The notes under the pieces: model-generated
Databases searched by the model: none
The model's input: only the letters and a program-made list of their open reading frames with translations
Told to the model about the DNA's origin: nothing
Shown: piece by piece, positions 233 to 6,521 of the stretch
Numbering within the stretch: the first letter of the stretch is position 1
Layout of the letters: every line of letters begins with the position of its first letter
Virus record (IMG/VR): IMGVR_UViG_2534681674_000007
Direction: 5' to 3' (one strand)
Length of the DNA: 6,521 nt
DNA from: a virus
Lineage: Duplodnaviria > Heunggongvirae > Uroviricota > Caudoviricetes
Program-made: the position numbers and the translations under genes

Positions 233-756
233 GCCGCCCTTCTGACGCCCTGCCCGATCGCCATCAATGCCGCTTTGGATACGGTAGTAAACATCCGTCG
301 AGGACTGATGAACGGTCGCCAAATCAGCAGCATGGAGCCTTTGCTGTTTCCCTTCTTCTCCAGCCCCGTCGATGGTTCGATAAAATTAATCCGTCCATCA
401 GTGATAATGCGAACTTCGTCGACACTCTCCAGAGCCTTGCTGAACCATCCGACTGACATATCCTCTGGCACAAGCATCACTACCGTCTGTCGCTGTTGTA
501 TGCACTGCTCAGCGGCTTTTTCCACCCACGGCCTGATATTGCTGTACGGTGGGTTATTCCAGATTGCCCCGTGGCTTATCCACTCAGAATTTAGCGCGTC
601 GTCGGCCTCAGTTAGCCAGTGAGCACACAGAGCATTTTTGTCGCTCGCTGCCGAATCCAGCCAGAATCCAAACTCAATATCCAGTGCATCAAAAAGCCAA
701 AGCGGCGTTTGCCAGCAGTCCTTGTCGTGTGCTGGCGTATTTGATTTGATAGTCAT
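229..756 (-). CDS. phage DNA N6-adenine methyltransferase (Dam-like, orphan MTase)
   Basis: Translation [26 protein letters not shown]...WNNPPYS... carries the NPPY catalytic motif and the DxxCWQTP N-terminal motif of phage Dam-family MTases. ATG at 756..754 overlaps the NinB stop (ATGA). Position between ninB and ninE is typical of lambdoid/Stx-type phages. Confidence 0.85.
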
Positions 757-1196
757 GCTGCCCGATCTCCCCATCGCGCTTTCCATTCGAGAGCCAGTCG
801 AGCTTCGTCTGACCACTTAACGCCACGCTCTGTACCGAATGCCTGTATAAGCTCTAATAGCTCCGCAAATTCGCTTACACGCATCCTGCTGGTTGACTGG
901 CCTATTACCACAAAGCCATTCCCGGCAAGGTTAGGAACAACGTCCTGCTGCTTTAATGCTGCGGTAAACACACACTTCCAGCTTTCTGCATCCAGCCAGC
1001 GACCATGCCATTCAACCTGACGAGAGACGTCACCTAAGCAGGCCCATAGCTTCCTGTTTTGGTCTAAGCTGCGGTTGCGTTCCTGAATGGTTACTACGAT
1101 TGGTTTGGTTGGGTCTGGAAGAATTTGCTGGATAGCTTGAATGGCGTTCTGCTGATGGATGGGGCTTCTTAGTTCAAACGTTAGTTTCCTCACCAT
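753..1196 (-). CDS. ninB: NinB (Orf-family recombination mediator)
   Basis: 147-aa translation (MVRKLTFELRSPIHQQNAIQAIQQILPDPTKPIVVTIQERNRSLDQNRKLWACLGDVSRQVEWHGRW...) is near-identical to lambda NinB as I recall it. Strong SD (AGGAG, 5-nt spacer) upstream of ATG 1196. Confidence 0.9.
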   Translation of the reverse strand: MVRKLTFELRSPIHQQNAIQAIQQILPDPTKPIVVTIQERNRSLDQNRKLWACLGDVSRQVEWHGRWLDAESWKCVFTAALKQQDVVPNLAGNGFVVIGQSTSRMRVSEFAELLELIQAFGTERGVKWSDEARLALEWKARWGDRAA

Positions 1197-1338
1197 TTAC
1201 GCTCCTGTAATCGTCAAGTGCAGCTGCAATAGTCCCTATCTGGTCATGGTCTTGCCCGATAATCTCATTTACGTTTTCATCTTCTTCCACACCGAAAAAG
1301 AATCGCAGGGCTAACATGATTTCTTCGTATGCGCTCAT
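1174..1338 (-). CDS. small acidic hypothetical protein (54 aa, ~13 D/E vs 2 K/R)
   Basis: Not in the ORF track (<60 aa). ATG at 1338..1336 is preceded by AGGAG with a 5-nt spacer; translates MSAYEEIMLALRFFFGVEEDENVNEIIGQDHDQIGTIAAALDDYRSVNGEETNV; stop TGA at 1176..1174. Starts 2 nt after the stop of the upstream 87-aa ORF and overlaps the ninB start by 23 nt. Confidence 0.4.
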   Translation of the reverse strand: MSAYEEIMLALRFFFGVEEDENVNEIIGQDHDQIGTIAAALDDYRSVNGEETNV

Positions 1339-1340
1339 AC

Positions 1341-1604
1341 TCACTCCTTCACTTTGACTCCAGCAGTGCGGATGGCCTCTACATCGCTTTCGTATTGTGA
1401 TTCTGCACCTGTGTCATAGCCAATGTGATAATCACCGGGAAGTGGGCCTTTCTTTGGCTTTTGCAGCTCAATTTCAAAAGCTGCTCGCGATGCCTGCCAC
1501 GCTTGCCAATACATCTCAACCATATTGGCGTATATTTTATTTTTAGGATCACATCCGGTGTAATTTTCAAACCATTCTTCAAACTGCTTTCTTGATTCGT
1601 CCAT
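1341..1604 (-). CDS. hypothetical phage protein (87 aa)
   Basis: Open frame with SD-like GAGGG 8 nt upstream of ATG 1604; tightly packed in the operon between the helicase and ninB. No family recognised from sequence. Confidence 0.5.
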   Translation of the reverse strand: MDESRKQFEEWFENYTGCDPKNKIYANMVEMYWQAWQASRAAFEIELQKPKKGPLPGDYHIGYDTGAESQYESDVEAIRTAGVKVKE

Positions 1605-1621
1605 CGGTACTTACCCTCAGT

Positions 1622-1828
1622 TCAACTCACAAAACGCCACGCCATTTTTGCTACGACAACAGGCATAACACCGATAATCACCCACAGGAAAATGCTACCG
1701 AGAAGCACACCAACCAGGTCTTTACCTTCGCCTAACAACCGGACAAAACTGCTGGCAACCACGATGAACGTCGACACCATCCACATAGCACCGAGAATCC
1801 TCAATGCAGAGAAAATTAACTCAGCCAC
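1622..1828 (-). CDS. small hydrophobic membrane protein (68 aa, two predicted TM helices)
   Basis: GTG start at 1828..1826 preceded by GGGGAGAG (6-nt spacer). Translation shows two hydrophobic stretches (approx. residues 5-28 and 40-60) separated by a short charged loop (RLLGEGKDL). No family recognised. Confidence 0.45.
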   Translation of the reverse strand: MAELIFSALRILGAMWMVSTFIVVASSFVRLLGEGKDLVGVLLGSIFLWVIIGVMPVVVAKMAWRFVS

Positions 1829-1842
1829 GATTTACTCTCCCC

Positions 1843-1875
1843 AAAATAAAAAGGCCTGCGATTACCAGCAGGCCT
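1843..1875 (-). terminator. Rho-independent terminator candidate downstream of the helicase gene (tR2-like position)
   Basis: Perfect 8-bp GC-rich stem (1852..1859 AGGCCTGC / 1868..1875 GCAGGCCT) with an 8-nt loop; on the - strand it is followed by TTTTTATTTT (plus-strand A-run 1841..1851). Lies 26 nt after the helicase stop. Confidence 0.5.
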
Positions 1876-1900
1876 GTTATTAGCTCAGTGATGTAGATGG

Positions 1901-3277
1901 TCATACGTCAGCCCCTTGTGCATATCGTCTGCCACGTGCAGCGGGTGCATTTGATGTTGTGCAAATCTGTCTGGCTTCATCCTGGTCACACGCAACAAAG
2001 TGTCCGTTGCAGAACCGCTGGTAAACCGTACCAAGCGAGCCAAAACGGTTTTTCGTCACGATGATTTCAGCAAATGGCGCGGCGCTACTGTTCTCGTCAT
2101 ATACCGCTTCCCGATAGAGCATGATGATTGAGTCTGCGTCCTGCTCAATGCTTCCTGAATCACGCAAATCTGCGTTTGTCGGGCGTTTATTTGGTCGCTT
2201 CTCAACATCGCGCGAAAGCTGACTCAGGGAGATAACAGGCGTTTTCAGGTCTTTCGCCATCGCCTTCAGGCTTCCGGAGATGTGAGCAATTGCAAGGTCG
2301 TTGCGGTCTGCTTTCGGCTTCTCAATCAGGCCAAGATAATCCGCCATGATGAGTGACAGGTTTGGATTTTCCTGTTTGTGCCGTTCTGCGATTGAGCGTA
2401 TTTCTTCGACCGATAACCGCGATGCATCGACTACCCATACATCCAAATCTGCAAGCTGACTCATGCCGTTAGCAACACGCGCCCAGCCTTCGTCATCCAT
2501 CGATGCAGGATTTCGCAGCACGCTAACCGACATCCTCCCGGCGTTGGCAATGCTCCGCTCTGCAATCTGCAATGCGCTCATTTCCATTGAGAAAATCAAT
2601 ACTCCGCGCCGGACGTCAGAACCAGGAATAACGCGGCTTGCAACACCTTCGGCAATCTTCAGCGCCAGTTCGGTTTTCCCCATACCAGGACGAGCGGCGA
2701 TAATCACCAGGTCTTCCGCGTTCATCCCTCCGGTGATAGCGTCAAGTTCTTCGATTCCGGTCTTCAGGGTATCGGACTCTTCTCCGTTCCTCAGACGCCT
2801 GTCAAGCGTGTCAGTGTAGTCAGTAATGATTTCCCCTAACCGTACAGGTTTAACCTCGTCACTGGGCTTTCTGATGGCTGAAAGACGCTTTACAAGCTCA
2901 TCCATCGCCTGACTCGATGCGTCGATGGTTCCGCTCTGAATTGGTTCACGCATTTCATCCATGATTTCCAGCACCAGACGGCGGTGATAGTTATCCGCGA
3001 CCATTCCGGCATATCCCTTCAGGTTTGCGGCGCTCGGGCAGTTTTTGCTGGTCATCAGGATTGACGTGAAATGCTCCTCTCCGCACGCCTCGGCAACCAT
3101 CAGCGCGTCGATTATGTTTCTGTTTCGCGCCTGCTTGCGGATAACCTCGAAGGCTTTCCGGTAGAGCGGAATTGAAAACGCTTCCGGCTCCAGCGTTGCA
3201 AGAACGTCACTGGCGGTTGGAGTTAATCCACCAATCAGCAGGCCACCGATAACGCTCGCTTCGATATCCTGTCTCAT
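1901..3277 (-). CDS. replicative DNA helicase, DnaB family (phage P22 gene 12-like)
   Basis: 458-aa translation has DnaB hallmarks: N-terminal [13 protein letters not shown], Walker [26 protein letters not shown], and C-terminal [36 protein letters not shown] at 3277..3275 overlaps the upstream gene stop (ATGA); SD GGGGGA upstream. Confidence 0.92.
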
Positions 3278-3846
3278 GCAATCCCCCTGTCTGCAAACTT
3301 CCCTTCCCGTACTCCCGTTAACGAATCTTCCCTCAGCAGGTAATCAAAATCTGCCGTCCAGCCAGTGTCGTTGTCTCCGAAGTAAAACGGCTTGGCCTGA
3401 TGCACAAACGCCCTGACATACGCTCTGAAACCGTCCACGTTTGGCGTTTTCAGTTGTGGGATGATTTTCTTCAGGCGGCGTTTGCGTTTCTCGTTGACCG
3501 CAACAGCGTGTGGCAGTCTGTCACCGACTTCGGTGTTGTAGGCGTTCAGGAAGGATTCGTAGTCGATTCGTTCTGCCTTGCGACGTTCAGGTTTAACCTG
3601 CCCATCGCCTCCCCCATTGGGGGGTAGGGGGGTATTATTTATATTCTTGTTAATACCTTCTTGTTCATGATGTGCGGTTGTTTGTGCGGCTTCATGTGCG
3701 CTTTCATGTGCGGCATGTGCGCTGAAAGCCGCGCCATTACTGTCTTCGTCATGTGCGGCATCATGTGCGGTTGTTTGTGCGGCTTCATGTGCGGGTAAAT
3801 TGTCCATTTTTTGAGCATATTCATGGTAATTTGTGATGGTTATCAC
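3274..3846 (-). CDS. replication initiation protein, lambda O / P22 gp18-like, N-terminally truncated at the IS junction (linker plus C-terminal domain only)
   Basis: ORF opens with GTG at 3846..3844 immediately adjacent to the IS end; the in-frame stop upstream lies inside the IS terminus. The 5' third encodes AH[E/D]AA-type repeats, then an Asn/Gly/Pro-rich linker, then a C-terminal domain (..[25 protein letters not shown]..) resembling phage replication initiator C-termini. Sits immediately upstream of and translationally coupled to the helicase. The N-terminal iteron-binding domain is absent. Confidence 0.6.
3666..3795. repeat. iteron-like tandem array: about 9 copies of (C)ATGTGCG(G) at roughly 12-bp phasing, including an exact 31-bp direct repeat (3670..3700 and 3763..3793)
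   Basis: ATGTGCG at 3670, 3694, 3706, 3715, 3751, 3763, 3787 and TTGTGCG at 3683, 3776. ATGTGCGGTTGTTTGTGCGGCTTCATGTGCG is repeated exactly 93 bp apart. Lies inside the O-like gene and is followed (in the direction of O transcription) by an AT-rich tract at 3633..3655. Confidence 0.6.
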
Positions 3847-3888
3847 TGAACCGCCCCGGGTTTCCTGGAGAGTATTTTATCTGTGAAC

Positions 3889-4776
3889 TCAGGCTGCCAG
3901 ATCATTATTTCCGATGGAAGCATAATAAGCTTTTTCTGCTTCTGCCGGAGGAATATGGCCCAGCCTTTCCAGCAATCGTCGATTGTTATACCAGTCCACC
4001 CACGTTAGTGTGGCCAGTTCCACTTCTGTCCGGTTTTTCCAGCTATTACGGTGTATTACCTCCGCTTTGTAAAGACCATTGATGCTCTCAGCCATCGCGT
4101 TGTCATACGAGTCGCCAGTACTCCCTGTTGATGCCAGTAATCCGGCTTCCTTAAGCCGCTGCGTGTAGGCCAGCGATACATACTGAGAACCTTTATCACT
4201 GTGATGGATTGTGCCGGACGGCCGACGGGCCCACAACGCCTGCTCCAGTGCATCCAGCACGAATGTCGTTTCCATAGACGATGAGACTCGCCACCCCACG
4301 ATACATCCGGCAAACACATCAATGATGAACGCCACATAGACGAAGCCCTGCCATGTGCTGACGTAAGTAAAATCAGCCACCCACAGCTGGTCAGGACGTT
4401 CTGCCACGAACTGACGGTTTACGCGGTCGCCTGCGGAAACGGCTTTCCGGCTGACGGTAGTACGGACCTTTTTACCCCGGAGAACACCGGCAAGTCCCAT
4501 AACCGCCATGAGGCGCGCCACTGTACATCTGGCCACCCTGATACCTTCGCGTAACAACTGGCGCCAGACTTTACGCACACCGTACACCTGATGATTTTCA
4601 TCGTATACGCGCTGTATCTCTCTCTTCAGCCAGTCATCGTGCTGCGCACGGGCACTGCGTTTATCCGGATGATGTCGCTGTTGCTGACAATGGTAATACG
4701 TTGACGGGGCAATATGCAGTTCGCTGCATACCGGTCCGACCCCGTACTGCTCACGCAGCTTATCCAGCAGCGGCAT
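3889..4776 (-). CDS. IS629-like transposase OrfB (DDE catalytic domain, 295 aa)
   Basis: Contains the DDE triad context (..LWVADFTYV.., ..HHSDKGSQYVS.., ..DNAMAESINGLYKAE..) typical of IS3-family integrase-fold transposases. In -1 frame relative to orfA, with overlap at 4776. Confidence 0.9.
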   Translation of the reverse strand: MPLLDKLREQYGVGPVCSELHIAPSTYYHCQQQRHHPDKRSARAQHDDWLKREIQRVYDENHQVYGVRKVWRQLLREGIRVARCTVARLMAVMGLAGVLRGKKVRTTVSRKAVSAGDRVNRQFVAERPDQLWVADFTYVSTWQGFVYVAFIIDVFAGCIVGWRVSSSMETTFVLDALEQALWARRPSGTIHHSDKGSQYVSLAYTQRLKEAGLLASTGSTGDSYDNAMAESINGLYKAEVIHRNSWKNRTEVELATLTWVDWYNNRRLLERLGHIPPAEAEKAYYASIGNNDLAA

Positions 4777-5102
4777 TATTTTTTCCAGAGGCGGTCGAAC
4801 TCCGCCTTCGCAAAATAAGCGGAAGCCTGGCGAAGGATATCGTTACTGCGGCGCAGTTCACGATTTTCACGTTCCAGCTCTTTCAGACGCTGACGTTCAG
4901 CGGTGGTGAGTCCACCATCACCACTCCCGGTATCCCGCTCACGCTGACGAACCCACACACGCAGAGTCTCTGGTGTACAGCCAATCTTTGGGGCAATGGA
5001 ACAAATTGCCGCCCATTGTGAGTCATATTCGCCCTGACTTTCCAGAACCATACGAATCGCCCGCTGACGGACTTCGGGGGAAAAACGAGTATTTTTAGTC
5101 AT
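4776..5102 (-). CDS. IS629-like transposase OrfA (HTH DNA-binding subunit, 108 aa)
   Basis: [51 protein letters not shown]... with a leucine-zipper-like C-terminus ([30 protein letters not shown]), typical of IS3-family OrfA. Ends in AAA AAA TAA overlapping the orfB ATG. Confidence 0.9.
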
Positions 5103-5293
5103 CCTGTTTACCTCTTTCTCAGGGAGTTTAGTCTCCAGGATTTCCGGGGCGGTTCATTACCGATATCGATACATCAGGAATATTTGATTCAGATGATATG
5201 ACTATCAAAGCCGCCTGAGCGCGGCTTTACCGCATACCAATAATGCTTCACGAGAGGCATTTTCGTTATGCAATCAAATATAAGGAGTTACCC

Positions 5294-5428
5294 ATGATGC
5301 ACTTTCAGCTCGCGGGTAGCGGCGTCATGTCCGCTTTCTACCCGCACGAATCTGAATTATCACGCCGAGTTAAACAATTAATCAGAGCAGCAAAGAAACA
5401 ACTGGAGGCGTTATGCGCAATGAAATAG
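5294..5428 (+). CDS. small hypothetical protein (44 aa)
   Basis: ATG 5294 is preceded by TAAGGAG with a 7-nt spacer; translates MMHFQLAGSGVMSAFYPHESELSRRVKQLIRAAKKQLEALCAMK. The ORF-track upstream start at 5243 has no SD. Confidence 0.4.
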   Translation: MMHFQLAGSGVMSAFYPHESELSRRVKQLIRAAKKQLEALCAMK

Positions 5429-5565
5429 CCATTAATCACCAGATGCTTCGTGCTGCACAGAACAAAGCAGTAATAGCCCGATTTATTGGTGATTCAAAAA
5501 TGTGGCTTGAAGCAAATAAAGCGATGAAATCAGCTATCAACCTTCCGTGGTATCGCAGGAAATGA
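5413..5565 (+). CDS. small hypothetical protein (50 aa)
   Basis: Not in ORF track (<60 aa). ATG 5413 is preceded by GGAGG (4-nt spacer); translates MRNEIAINHQMLRAAQNKAVIARFIGDSKMWLEANKAMKSAINLPWYRRK; stop TGA 5563..5565. Confidence 0.4.
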   Translation: MRNEIAINHQMLRAAQNKAVIARFIGDSKMWLEANKAMKSAINLPWYRRK

Positions 5566-5720
5566 GTTTTACAGATAACTGGTCAGACGAAGAATTCATT
5601 CGTCAGATGAAAGATTTAATCGGTAACGAAGGAGATATTCATGTCACTTGCAACCACAGTGAAGGAGAGCAAGTTACAGAGACGCATGTACACGCAGAAA
5701 GCTCTCTGGTATCGCCATAA
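5562..5720 (+). CDS. small hypothetical protein (52 aa), alternative to or overlapping 5641..5811
   Basis: ATG 5562 overlaps the preceding stop (ATGA); weak SD. Translates MSFTDNWSDEEFIRQMKDLIGNEGDIHVTCNHSEGEQVTETHVHAESSLVSP. Overlaps the next candidate in a different frame, so at most one model may be fully correct. Confidence 0.3.
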   Translation: MSFTDNWSDEEFIRQMKDLIGNEGDIHVTCNHSEGEQVTETHVHAESSLVSP

Positions 5721-5811
5721 TGGCGACCGCGAAGGAATGCGGGTATGCCTTAATTTGTCCCGAGTCGAAGTATTAAATCAGCGTTATTTTCTTGGGCCAT
5801 GTCCATTCTGA
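5641..5811 (+). CDS. small hypothetical protein (56 aa), alternative to or overlapping 5562..5720
   Basis: ATG 5641 is preceded by a near-ideal SD (AAGGAG, 6-nt spacer). Translates MSLATTVKESKLQRRMYTQKALWYRHNGDREGMRVCLNLSRVEVLNQRYFLGPCPF; stop TGA 5809..5811, 8 nt before the downstream gene. Confidence 0.35.
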   Translation: MSLATTVKESKLQRRMYTQKALWYRHNGDREGMRVCLNLSRVEVLNQRYFLGPCPF

Positions 5812-5819
5812 GGTGAATT

Positions 5820-6521
5820 ATGGATTTGAACAAATTCGATGAGCCATTCAGCCCTGAAGATATCGAATGGCGAATACAGCAAAGCGGTAAAACACGCGAT
5901 GGAAAGGTGTGGGCTATGGTGCTGGCTTATGTCACGAACAGGGCAATCATGAAACGCCTGGATGATGTTTGCGGCAAAGCAGGATGGCGCAATGAATACC
6001 GCGATATTCCCAACAACGGCGGCGTTGAATGCGGCATATCAATAAAGATTGATTCCGAATGGGTAACCAAATGGGATGCTGCTGAAAACACGCAGGTAGA
6101 AGCCGTCAAAGGTGGTCGTTCCGGTGCAATGAAGCGCGCTGCCGTTCAGTGGGGAATCGGTCGGTATCTGTATAACCTTGAGGAAGGTTTCGCACAAACA
6201 TCTCTCGATAAAAAGCAGGGGTGGCACAGGGCAAAACTGAAGGATGGAACAGGATTTTACTGGCTCCCTCCATCGCTTCCGGGATGGGCAATCCCAGCAT
6301 CAGATAACAAACCATCACCAGAAAATACCAACCAGAAATCTCCATCGGTTGACTGCGAACAAATCCTGAAAGACTTCAGCGATTATGCGTCAACAGAAAC
6401 TGACAAGAAAAAACTCATCGAGCGTTATCAGCGTGACTGGCAATTAATGGCTGGCAACGAGGAAGCGCAGGCTAAATGCGTTCAGGTAATGAACATCAGA
6501 GTTAACGAACTAAAACCGTAA
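5820..6521 (+). CDS. Rad52-like single-strand annealing protein (phage Sak/Rad52 family recombinase)
   Basis: 233-aa ORF with SD AGGTGA upstream of ATG 5820. N-terminal region (..VLAYVTNRAIMKRLDDVCGKAGWRNEY.. and ..VKGGRSGAMKRAAVQWGIGRYLYNL..) follows the conserved Rad52 N-terminal-domain pattern (RLD..G..GW and a K(R)A...G(I)GRYLY-like motif). Assignment from motif recollection, not a search. Confidence 0.65.
   Translation: MDLNKFDEPFSPEDIEWRIQQSGKTRDGKVWAMVLAYVTNRAIMKRLDDVCGKAGWRNEYRDIPNNGGVECGISIKIDSEWVTKWDAAENTQVEAVKGGRSGAMKRAAVQWGIGRYLYNLEEGFAQTSLDKKQGWHRAKLKDGTGFYWLPPSLPGWAIPASDNKPSPENTNQKSPSVDCEQILKDFSDYASTETDKKKLIERYQRDWQLMAGNEEAQAKCVQVMNIRVNELKP

What the first reader, a model, noticed from the sequence alone, without database searches (positions are those of the whole stretch)
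1174..1828. Uncharacterised three-gene cassette between the helicase and ninB (lambda ren position): small 2-TM membrane protein plus two acidic small proteins
This slot varies between lambdoid phages; lambda carries ren here, which is unrelated to these proteins. The cassette encodes a 68-aa two-helix membrane protein with its own strong SD and GTG start just after an intrinsic terminator, an 87-aa protein, and a 54-aa highly acidic protein (approx. net charge -11) with a strong SD that overlaps the ninB start. Small membrane proteins in such slots are often superinfection-exclusion, toxin or abortive-infection factors, and small very acidic proteins can be DNA mimics or anti-defence factors. 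None matches a family I recognise, so this is the best candidate in the window for an undescribed accessory function, but it is speculative.
Basis: inference. Interest (0 to 1): 0.5.

Follow-up and report, generated by a model that had tools for sequence, protein, structure and literature searches.

The report
Three unlinked small phage nin-region genes
The three small genes between the helicase and ninB of this E. coli prophage are real, but they are separate, interchangeable, dispensable phage accessory genes from already catalogued families of unknown function, not a co-inherited cassette.

Summary
On the minus strand, after the DnaB-type helicase and a strong intrinsic terminator (the one annotated tR2 in phage HK620), lie a 68-aa two-helix membrane protein (A, 1622-1828), an 87-aa acidic protein (B, 1341-1604) and a 54-aa protein of net charge -11 (C, 1174-1338) that overlaps ninB by 23 nt. 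All three are conserved under purifying selection and match PHROGs 1165, 343 and 1603, all of unknown function.

The "cassette" reading does not hold. The genes assort independently. A is in 526, this B allele in 164 and C in 26 of 5,426 complete E. coli genomes, and the contiguous trio is in 9. A occurs alone in HK630. The slot is empty in a 96%-identical prophage, where the same terminator and ribosome-binding site feed ninB directly.

No space for a promoter exists between tR2 and A, and the genes are chained by overlapping stop and start codons. They are therefore best read as nonessential delayed-early nin-region genes that depend on antitermination, not as genes expressed from the lysogen.

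Structure models of B and C match no known fold, and the "VOC" label on some B relatives is unsupported. Biochemical function stays unknown. The only notable pattern is that unrelated small membrane proteins recur in this slot. The finding is ordinary, with low-to-moderate interest.

The parts
1901..3277 (-). DnaB-type replicative helicase (the lambda P position). It is the upstream neighbour that defines the left edge of the slot.
   Evidence: Pfam DnaB_C 9.6e-78 and DnaB 8e-13. RefSeq annotates the homologue as a replicative DNA helicase.
1821..1904 (-). 27-aa hydrophobic mini-ORF ninA ([27 protein letters not shown]). Its ATG overlaps the helicase stop (ATGA), it is read through the tR2 hairpin, and its TGA overlaps codons 1-3 of gene A.
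   Evidence: Translation. Annotated as ninA in HK620 and HK630. phrog_5907, E 2e-16. In the empty-slot prophage it ends in an ATGA overlap with ninB.
1852..1875 (-). Intrinsic terminator, equivalent to the tR2 annotated in HK620. The 8-bp GC-rich stem is AGGCCTGC/GCAGGCCT, followed by TTTTTATTTT.
   Evidence: Terminator scan. RNA fold. Nearly invariant alignment with the HK620 tR2, HK022 and a Salmonella P22-like phage.
1622..1828 (-). Gene A: 68-aa two-transmembrane-helix protein of phrog_1165, function unknown. The charge distribution suggests N-in/C-in topology with a short GEGKD periplasmic loop.
   Evidence: Homologues down to 38% identity keep W16, T20, F21, G35-K36-D37, W49, G53, P56, K61, W64 and R65. 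526 of 5,426 E. coli genomes carry it. pN/pS 0.51.
1341..1604 (-). Gene B: 87-aa acidic soluble protein of phrog_343, function unknown. Close homologues carry precomputed Pfam PF26207. It is internally mosaic: the N-terminus, the WQAWQASRAAIEIEL core and the IRAAGIKVKE C-terminus are conserved, with variable parts between them.
1174..1338 (-). Gene C: 54-aa, net -11, predicted three-helix protein of phrog_1603, function unknown. The last 23 nt overlap ninB, and its C-terminal tail (GEETNV) is dictated by that overlap.
   Evidence: The tail is shared with unrelated proteins in the same position. No fold or sequence match to solved structures. Homologues lie in virulent Klebsiella phages between nrdD and nrdG.
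753..1196 (-). ninB (Orf-family recombination mediator), the downstream neighbour that defines the right edge of the slot.
   Evidence: Pfam NinB 2.4e-54 and phrog_72.

Best explanation
The interval holds three separate, individually exchangeable accessory genes of the lambdoid 'nin' region, plus the 27-aa ninA bridge ORF. It is not a functional cassette.

How they are expressed: they sit immediately downstream of terminator tR2 in the rightward early (PR) operon and have no room for a promoter of their own. They are chained to the helicase and to ninB by overlapping or closely spaced stop and start codons. They would therefore be made only when antiterminated (N-modified) polymerase reads through tR2, that is, as delayed-early proteins of lytic growth. 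This step is inferred from sequence plus established lambda biology.

How they came to be here: each gene is a mosaic module swapped in and out by recombination at gene boundaries.
- The left junction is the shared tR2 and ribosome-binding site.
- The right junction lies inside the first codons of ninB.

What the proteins are likely to be:
- A is an inner-membrane helical hairpin.
- B is a soluble acidic alpha/beta protein of a very large phage family.
- C is a small, very acidic helical protein.

Their biochemical roles are not shown. My best guess is that A acts on the envelope of the infected cell during lytic growth (for example lytic-phase exclusion of further phage DNA, or membrane modulation), and that B and C act by binding host or phage proteins. 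All three are dispensable for phage growth.
For: Position and signals:
- The terminator sits at 1875-1852, and only 23 nt separate the hairpin from the GTG of A.
- The same element is annotated tR2 in HK620 and is nearly invariant across phages.
- No minus-strand promoter-like site was found in 700-2100.
- Translational chaining runs helicase ATGA ninA, then ninA TGA overlapping the GTG of A, then 17 nt from A to B, 2 nt from B to C, and a 23-nt overlap of C with ninB.

Independent assortment in viral contigs:
- Among 80 loci found through A, B is present in 45 and C in 4.
- Among 47 loci found through C, A is present in 16 and B in 38.
- In 70 unique slots found through B or C: A and C together 9, A only 25, C only 19, neither 17.

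Independent assortment in 5,426 complete E. coli genomes:
- A is in 526, this B allele in 164 (27 at 80% or more of its length) and C in 26.
- The contiguous trio is in 9.

Dispensability and junctions:
- A stands alone in HK630.
- The slot is empty in strain CUVM3, where the same tR2 and SD drive ninB directly.
- Slot length ranges from 284 to 1531 bp over 101 unique versions.
- Unrelated proteins in the last position share the ...EETNV tail imposed by the ninB overlap.

The genes are real: PHROG E-values 1e-28 to 1e-35 and pN/pS 0.18-0.51.

Literature: the lambda nin region is a cluster of nonessential delayed-early genes in the PR unit that is subject to N antitermination (PMC10695390). Its genes are tightly packed with ATGA overlaps and their functions are largely unknown (PMC8022706).
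Against: - No expression data were examined, and leaky read-through of tR2 in a lysogen cannot be excluded.
- The viral-contig loci were found through the three genes themselves, so the co-occurrence fractions are biased, although the E. coli genome counts are not.
- C is accompanied by a B-family gene in 38 of 47 loci. That could reflect a functional link rather than the sheer commonness of B.
- The proposed roles of A, B and C are guesses with no homology or fold support.
- In this particular window the prophage has lost its immunity region, PR and N to an IS3-associated deletion. The normal expression logic may therefore not apply in this host.
Confidence: 0.8

Rival explanations
1. The three genes form one functional system (for example a membrane effector with two soluble regulators, a toxin-antitoxin-like module, or an abortive-infection or superinfection-exclusion module) that is inherited as a unit.
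For: The genes are adjacent, co-oriented and tightly packed. The exact trio recurs at 91-100% identity in a handful of genomes. C usually has a B-family gene upstream, in 38 of 47 loci.
Against: - A is 20 times more frequent than C in E. coli genomes.
- A and C are, if anything, negatively associated (odds ratio 0.32).
- A stands alone in HK630.
- C homologues occur without A, B or ninB next to them in virulent Klebsiella phages.
- There are no PADLOC hits.
- Tight packing is the rule for all nin genes (PMC8022706).
Confidence: 0.04
2. Gene A (with or without B and C) is a lysogenic-conversion 'moron' expressed from the repressed prophage. In this reading it gives the host superinfection exclusion or abortive infection against other phages.
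For: - Small membrane proteins of temperate phages are often exclusion factors (general knowledge, not tested here).
- A has a strong SD.
- 57 of 70 slots carry some small membrane ORF.
Against: - There is no room for a promoter between tR2 and A, and no promoter-like site was found.
- The start of A overlaps the stop of the upstream ninA ORF.
- No terminator-like site was found downstream of A within 700-2100. A moron typically brings its own promoter and terminator.
- There are no PADLOC hits.
Confidence: 0.07
3. Gene C is a DNA-mimic or other acidic decoy that inhibits a host DNA-binding defence or repair enzyme (restriction enzyme, RecBCD or similar) during lytic growth. This reading is compatible with the main explanation.
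For: - Net charge -11 in 54 aa, and a predicted compact helical fold.
- Strong purifying selection, pN/pS 0.18.
- It is found both in temperate lambdoid phages and in virulent Klebsiella phages, as mobile anti-defence genes often are.
- It sits next to recombination genes.
Against: - There is no sequence or fold similarity to any solved structure, and the PDB holds known DNA mimics.
- The family is narrow: 23 clusters at 90% identity and only 26 of 5,426 E. coli genomes.
- Two of the acidic residues lie in the tail imposed by the ninB overlap.
- Acidity alone is weak evidence.
Confidence: 0.15
4. Gene A is a holin, antiholin or pinholin-like regulator of lysis timing.
For: It is 68 aa with two transmembrane helices and a short basic C-terminus. 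The first helix is less hydrophobic than the second. That size and layout resemble class II holins such as S21 of phage 21 (recalled from memory, not tested).
Against: - It lies in the early nin region, not in the late lysis cassette next to an endolysin.
- There is no Pfam or PHROG holin match. phrog_1165 has no annotation.
- There is no charge-rich C-terminal domain.
- It is absent from many otherwise similar phages.
Confidence: 0.05
5. One or more of the ORFs is a chance open reading frame and not a gene.
For: The ORFs are very short. Some phage records (HK620) do not annotate the A homologue. Overlapping alternative-frame ORFs exist.
Against: - PHROG profile matches.
- Intact alleles across dozens of divergent loci with pN/pS below 1.
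- Conserved start codons and SD sequences.
- Protein-level conservation down to 38% identity for A and about 27% for B.
- Confident structure models for B and C.
Confidence: 0.02

Closest known systems
Lambda ren and the nin-region genes of lambda, P22 and HK620 (ninA-ninH)
   Same: - Same position: between the replication helicase-type gene and ninB, at terminator tR2.
- Same organisation: a chain of tightly packed or overlapping small genes in the PR operon.
- Same genetics: nonessential, delayed-early, mosaic between phages (PMC10695390, PMC8022706).
   Different: No Ren family appeared among the Pfam or PHROG matches of A, B or C. Ren is a soluble protein linked to escape from Rex exclusion (general knowledge), whereas A is a membrane protein.
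HK022 genes 58-60 and HK630 gp52 (hypothetical proteins)
   Same: HK022_58 is 87% identical to A. HK022_59 sits in the B position and HK022_60 in the C position, in the same slot. HK630 gp52 is the A homologue, annotated from a downstream start.
   Different: - HK022 has additional ORFs between the helicase and its A homologue.
- HK022 carries an 84-aa gene in the C position instead of the 54-aa C. It is the same length and position as the 84-aa gene that RefSeq names a FlbD family protein in another E. coli prophage.
- HK630 has A only.
- None of these genes has been characterised.
phrog_343 / Pfam PF26207 / NCBI 'phiTE_015 family protein'
   Same: B matches phrog_343 over its full length (E 2e-28). 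Homologues 94-99% identical to B carry precomputed PF26207. A homologue of identical length (264 nt, probably the 94%-identical P0009) is named 'phiTE_015 family protein' in RefSeq.
   Different: These are names without a function. The NCBIfam copy available here gave no hit. The 'VOC family' label on a few relatives is not borne out by score, model or fold search.
Small acidic phage inhibitors and DNA mimics (for example Ocr, ArdA, T7 gp5.9)
   Same: C shares small size, strong negative charge and a predicted all-helical fold.
   Different: C shows no sequence or structural similarity to any solved protein. No target or activity is known. The resemblance is compositional only.

Membership tests
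PHROG families 1165 (A), 343 (B) and 1603 (C) | A significant full-length match to the family profile HMM. | tested here: met
   E-values 5.6e-35 (residues 1-68 of 68), 2e-28 (1-87) and 2.2e-32 (3-55 of the 56-aa form). All three families are annotated 'unknown function'.
Lambdoid nin-region accessory genes | Location in the PR operon between the replication genes and Q, downstream of tR2. | tested here: met
   The order is helicase, tR2, A, B, C, ninB, Dam methylase. In the 100%-identical segment of CP027587 it continues ninE, antirepressor genes, ninG, ninH, Q. The terminator aligns to the tR2 annotated in HK620.
Lambdoid nin-region accessory genes | Tight packing, with overlapping stop and start codons linking neighbouring genes. 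| tested here: met
   Helicase and ninA share an ATGA. The ninA stop overlaps the start of A. The A-B gap is 17 nt and the B-C gap 2 nt. C overlaps ninB by 23 nt. The literature describes this as typical (PMC8022706).
Lambdoid nin-region accessory genes | Dispensable for phage growth and dependent on N antitermination for expression. | not testable with these tools
   Indirect support only: the slot is empty in a prophage about 96% identical to the window over the aligned 65% of it, and the lambda nin region is nonessential (PMC10695390).
Co-inherited multigene cassette or defence system | The component genes co-occur across genomes far more often than apart. | tested here: not met
   A, B and C are in 526, 164 and 26 E. 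coli genomes, against 9 for the trio. C is present in 4 of 80 loci found through A. The A-C odds ratio is 0.32. There are no PADLOC hits.
NinA (P22/HK620), considered for gene A | Homology to the ORF annotated ninA. | tested here: not met
   The 'ninA' label under the tblastn hit of A comes from a few bases of overlap. ninA is the separate 27-aa ORF across tR2, present here at 1821-1904 (phrog_5907).
Lambda Ren | Sequence homology to Ren. | tested here: inconclusive
   No family matched by A, B or C in Pfam or PHROGs is named Ren. No direct comparison with the Ren sequence was run, and I did not verify that a Ren model exists in these libraries.
VOC / glyoxalase superfamily (label on some B relatives) | A Pfam match above the gathering threshold. 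| tested here: not met
   Glyoxalase_4 scores 21.4 bits against a cut-off of 27. A second B variant scores 17.3 bits.
VOC / glyoxalase superfamily (label on some B relatives) | The beta-alpha-beta-beta-beta module fold. | tested here: not met
DNA-mimic or acidic anti-defence proteins (for C) | A highly negative surface charge. | tested here: met
   13 D+E against 2 K+R in 54 aa, pI 4.05.
DNA-mimic or acidic anti-defence proteins (for C) | Structural or sequence relation to a known mimic, or demonstrated binding to a DNA-binding enzyme. | tested here: not met
Class II holin / pinholin (for A) | Two transmembrane domains in a protein of about 70 aa. | tested here: met
   The hydropathy profile shows two segments.
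Class II holin / pinholin (for A) | Encoded in the late lysis cassette next to the endolysin, with a match to a holin family. | tested here: not met
   A lies in the early nin region. No holin family was hit in Pfam or PHROGs.
Moron (autonomously expressed lysogenic-conversion gene) | Its own promoter upstream and its own terminator downstream. | tested here: not met
   There are 23 nt between the tR2 hairpin and the GTG of A. No minus-strand promoter-like site and no terminator-like site downstream of A were found within 700-2100.

The most novel reading that the evidence does not exclude
The position right after tR2 may be a hotspot where at least five unrelated families of small membrane proteins replace one another by non-homologous displacement. 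The families seen are phrog_1165 (A), 5903, 667 and 2531, plus two with no PHROG match. 57 of 70 unique slots carry at least one such ORF. That would imply a selected but undescribed membrane-acting function during early lytic growth, for example lytic-phase exclusion of competing phage DNA or evasion of a membrane-linked host defence. The last position before ninB (C, a protein with a sub-threshold FlbD-like match, a Cys-rich protein, a two-helix membrane protein) would be a second such hotspot, with C acting as a new small acidic inhibitor of a host protein.
Probability: 0.15. Interest if true: 0.55.

Novelty: already known. Interest (0 to 1): 0.2.

Why it matters
As it stands, the finding matters little. 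The genes are identical to RefSeq "hypothetical proteins", belong to catalogued unknown-function phage families, and sit in a slot whose mosaic variability has been known since the lambda, P22, HK97 and HK022 genome comparisons.

The useful outcomes are corrective:
- The trio should not be treated as a system.
- The "VOC family" name on some B relatives is unsupported.
- "NinA" refers to a different, 27-aa ORF.
- A is unlikely to be a gene expressed from the lysogen.

If the recurring small membrane proteins after tR2, or the acidic protein C, turned out to act in phage-phage competition or anti-defence, they would add small and easily testable effectors to a very well-studied phage group.

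Tried and rejected
Homology and family searches:
- Pfam, NCBIfam and PADLOC scans of A, B and C gave nothing above threshold.
- PDB profile searches with family alignments of A, B and C gave no hit below E 0.47.
- A full HMMER scan of 1.84 billion cluster representatives with the B profile found 817 relatives. All of the 150 best listed are small (45-161 aa) stand-alone proteins, some with short N-terminal extensions and none with an informative domain fusion. All 40 relatives then scanned match phrog_343.

Structure:
- The afdb50 library was unavailable.

Labels I rejected:
- "A is NinA", suggested by the feature names under tblastn hits. Reading the HK620 and HK630 records showed that ninA is a separate 27-aa ORF.
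- "B is a VOC/glyoxalase protein", suggested by NCBI names and a sub-threshold Pfam hit.

Other checks:
- Literature searches for the accession numbers, locus tags and PHROG ids of the three proteins found no paper. Broader searches on nin-region accessory or membrane proteins found only general descriptions.
- Rfam found only the IS3 frameshift pseudoknot, and nothing in the interval.
- A first script for the C-terminal tail analysis had an off-by-one error and was rerun correctly.
Full report
**What is in the window.** All relevant genes are on the minus strand. From high to low coordinates they are:
- an IS3-family element (3889-5102);
- a 5'-truncated replication-initiator gene (3274-3846);
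- a DnaB-type helicase (1901-3277; Pfam DnaB_C 9.6e-78);
- an intrinsic terminator (hairpin 1875-1852 plus T-run);
- gene A (1622-1828, 68 aa);
- gene B (1341-1604, 87 aa);
- gene C (1174-1338, 54 aa);
- ninB (753-1196; Pfam NinB 2.4e-54);
- a phage Dam methylase (229-816).

This is the early-right (PR) operon of a lambdoid prophage. The interval 1100-1950 is 100% identical to two E. coli chromosomes. In one of them the segment lies in a Stx1a prophage and continues through ninE, antirepressor genes, ninG, ninH and Q to stx1AB.

**Checking the observation.**
- A starts at a GTG preceded by GGGGAGAG. It is very hydrophobic (GRAVY 1.50), with two membrane-spanning segments (about 11-30 and 38-60) joined by a GEGKD loop.
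- B has pI 4.9.
- C has 13 acidic and 2 basic residues (net -11), an AAGGAG SD, and overlaps ninB by 23 nt.

The ORFs are real genes:
- Each matches a PHROG profile over its full length: phrog_1165 at 6e-35, phrog_343 at 2e-28 and phrog_1603 at 2e-32.
- All distinct alleles recovered from viral contigs are intact, with conserved start codons.
- Pooled pN/pS is 0.51 (A), 0.26 (B) and 0.18 (C).
- A keeps about 20 invariant positions down to 38% identity, and B keeps its core motifs down to about 27% identity.

A 27-aa ORF lies between the helicase and A at 1821-1904 ([27 protein letters not shown]).
- Its ATG overlaps the helicase stop (ATGA).
- It is read straight through the terminator hairpin.
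- Its TGA overlaps the first codons of A (cGTGGCTGA).

This ORF is what HK620 and HK630 annotate as ninA. The hairpin is what HK620 annotates as terminator tR2, and the 27-aa ORF matches phrog_5907. The terminator, SD and start codon are almost invariant between this window, HK620, HK022 and a Salmonella P22-like phage. The "NinA" label that appears under tblastn hits of A comes from a few bases of overlap, so A is not NinA. The HK620 record simply does not annotate its A homologue.

**Are the three genes a unit?** No.

In 5,426 complete E. coli genomes:
- A-like DNA is in 526 genomes.
- DNA of this B allele is in 164, but only 27 carry 80% or more of its length. B is itself mosaic.
- C is in 26.
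- The contiguous interval is in 9.

In viral contigs fetched through each protein:
- Of 80 loci found through A, 45 carry a B-family gene and 4 carry C.
- Of 47 loci found through C, 16 carry A and 38 carry B.
- Over 70 unique slots found through B or C, A and C together occur 9 times, A alone 25, C alone 19 and neither 17. The odds ratio is 0.32.

Across 101 unique versions the slot varies from 284 to 1531 bp and holds one to seven ORFs from dozens of families. A stands alone between tR2 and ninB in HK630. HK022 has A, a longer gene in the B position and a different 84-aa last gene.

In strain CUVM3 the prophage is about 96% identical to the window over the aligned 65% of it, and its slot is empty. 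There the same tR2 and GGGGGAGAG SD are followed directly by the ninB ATG, and ninA ends in an ATGA overlap with ninB.

The right-hand junction is just as clear. Unrelated proteins in the last position all end in (G/H/D)E(E/K)TN(V/I/L), because their last codons overlap the conserved start of ninB at the same offset. These proteins are C, a protein with a sub-threshold FlbD-like match, a Cys-rich protein and another.

The trio is therefore three modules inserted between a shared left junction (tR2 and SD) and a shared right junction (the first ninB codons). This is the classical lambdoid pattern of recombination at gene boundaries.

**Expression logic.** Only 23 nt separate the tR2 hairpin from the GTG of A, so no promoter can lie between them, and the scan found no minus-strand promoter-like site in 700-2100. 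The genes are chained by overlaps or very short gaps from the helicase through ninB.

[quoted passage not shown] The whole region can be deleted without loss of plaque formation (PMC10695390). Its genes are exceptionally tightly packed with ATGA overlaps, and their functions are largely unknown (PMC8022706).

I therefore infer that A, B and C are made during lytic growth after antitermination. They are unlikely to be expressed from the repressed prophage. This weakens the idea of a lysogen-protecting exclusion or abortive-infection factor, which would normally be a moron with its own promoter and terminator. The inference rests on sequence and on lambda biology, not on expression data.

**What the proteins are.**

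A: no Pfam, NCBIfam, PADLOC or PDB match. It is a two-helix hairpin. Its basic residues cluster at the C-terminus (K61, R65) and the loop is neutral, which suggests N-in/C-in topology.

B:
- It belongs to a large family: 817 representatives of 50%-identity clusters at E of 0.001 or lower. The 150 best listed are all 45-161 aa stand-alone proteins, and all 40 relatives scanned fall in phrog_343.
- Close homologues carry the precomputed Pfam accession PF26207. One is named "phiTE_015 family protein" in RefSeq.
- The family consensus has an N-terminal SRxQFExW, a WxAWQASRAAIEIELP core and a C-terminal AIRAAGIKVK, with variable segments between them. Some members add an N-terminal CxxC...CxC extension.
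- The "VOC family" name on a few relatives, and the sub-threshold Glyoxalase_4 hit (21.4 bits against a cut-off of 27), are therefore unsupported.

C:
- It belongs to a narrow family of 23 clusters at 90% identity.
- Besides lambdoid and P22-like phages such as BTP1, it occurs at 55-59% identity in virulent Klebsiella phages, between nrdD and nrdG.
- The model (pLDDT 77) is a three-helix bundle with a disordered tail.

No paper mentions the accession numbers, locus tags or PHROG ids of these proteins.

**Most likely mechanism, and its limits.**
- Shown: position, signals, independence, dispensability and family membership.
- Inferred: delayed-early, antitermination-dependent expression.
- Guessed: A acts at the inner membrane of the infected cell, and B and C act by binding other proteins.

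The DNA-mimic or anti-defence idea for C rests on charge alone, and two of its acidic residues sit in the overlap-imposed tail. I give it about 0.15. A holin-like role for A fits its size and two helices but not its location or its family (about 0.05).

**The one pattern worth noting.** Small membrane ORFs recur in this slot.
- Of the 70 unique slots found through B or C, 34 carry A.
- A further 23 carry another predicted small membrane protein.
- These come from at least five unrelated families: phrog_1165, 5903, 667 and 2531, plus two with no PHROG match.

The sampling is biased and the hydropathy rule is crude, so this is a lead and not a result.

**Verdict.** The "cassette" idea, the "no recognisable family" claim and the implied autonomous expression are not supported. 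These are ordinary, already catalogued mosaic nin-region ORFs. Interest 0.2.

Noticed in passing
window 1821-1904 (-), with hairpin 1852-1875: The 27-aa ninA ORF is translated straight through the tR2 terminator hairpin. It is linked by overlapping stop and start codons to the helicase upstream and to gene A downstream, or to ninB in empty-slot phages (L209:1340-1430). Ribosomes crossing the hairpin could modulate termination at tR2. I found no test of this.
   Followed up: partly
window 3274-5102 and 5243-6521: An IS3-family element (3889-5102; ALIL frameshift pseudoknot at 4705-4821, Rfam 120 bits) abuts a replication-initiator gene that lacks its 5' part. Beyond the IS come plus-strand early-left-type genes, including a Rad52/Rad22-type recombinase (5820-6521). 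Compared with the related prophage in strain CUVM3 (L209), the whole immunity region from cII, cro and cI through ral and kil is missing. This prophage therefore looks like a defective remnant without PR, PL or N. No complete E. coli genome in the collection holds 80% or more of the window in one place.
   Followed up: partly
L001 (CP027587) 6802-9491: In strain 2013C-4974 the interval 1100-1950 is 100% identical to the window. There, however, an IS3 element sits inside the helicase gene and the immunity region is intact. The same prophage backbone has thus been hit by IS3 at different places in different strains.
   Followed up: no
window 1341-1604 (-); alignments A1 and A5: Gene B is mosaic within itself. 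The first roughly 15 codons, the WQAWQASRAAIEIEL core and the last roughly 10 codons (IRAAGIKVKE) are conserved, while the segments between them are swapped among alleles. Only 27 of the 164 E. coli genomes that match this allele hold 80% or more of it. Some relatives (127-161 aa) carry an N-terminal CxxCxxTG...CxC zinc-ribbon-like extension.
   Followed up: partly
window 1174-1196 (-); many IMG/VR loci: Unrelated proteins encoded just upstream of ninB all end in ...(H/G/D)E(E/K)TN(V/I/L). Their 3' ends overlap the conserved ninB start (MVRKLTFEL) in the same register, so the recombination junction lies inside the upstream gene's last codons.
   Followed up: yes
IMG/VR loci L083-L199 (helicase-ninB slots): 57 of 70 unique slots carry at least one small predicted membrane ORF, from at least five unrelated families: phrog_1165, 5903, 667 and 2531, plus a 60-aa and a 61-aa two-helix ORF with no PHROG match. 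This may be a hotspot for small membrane proteins. Sampling bias and the crude transmembrane rule were not controlled for.
   Followed up: partly
L203 (Klebsiella phage KP13-16) 2501-2656: A homologue of the acidic protein C (59% identity over 45 residues) lies between nrdD and nrdG in virulent Stephanstirmvirinae phages of about 137-141 kb. That is far from any lambdoid nin context.
   Followed up: no
L200 (HK620, NC_002730) 2001-2207: The HK620 reference record does not annotate its homologue of gene A (56% identical, intact 68-codon ORF with the same SD and GTG start). HK630 annotates its homologue from a downstream ATG as 52 aa.
   Followed up: yes
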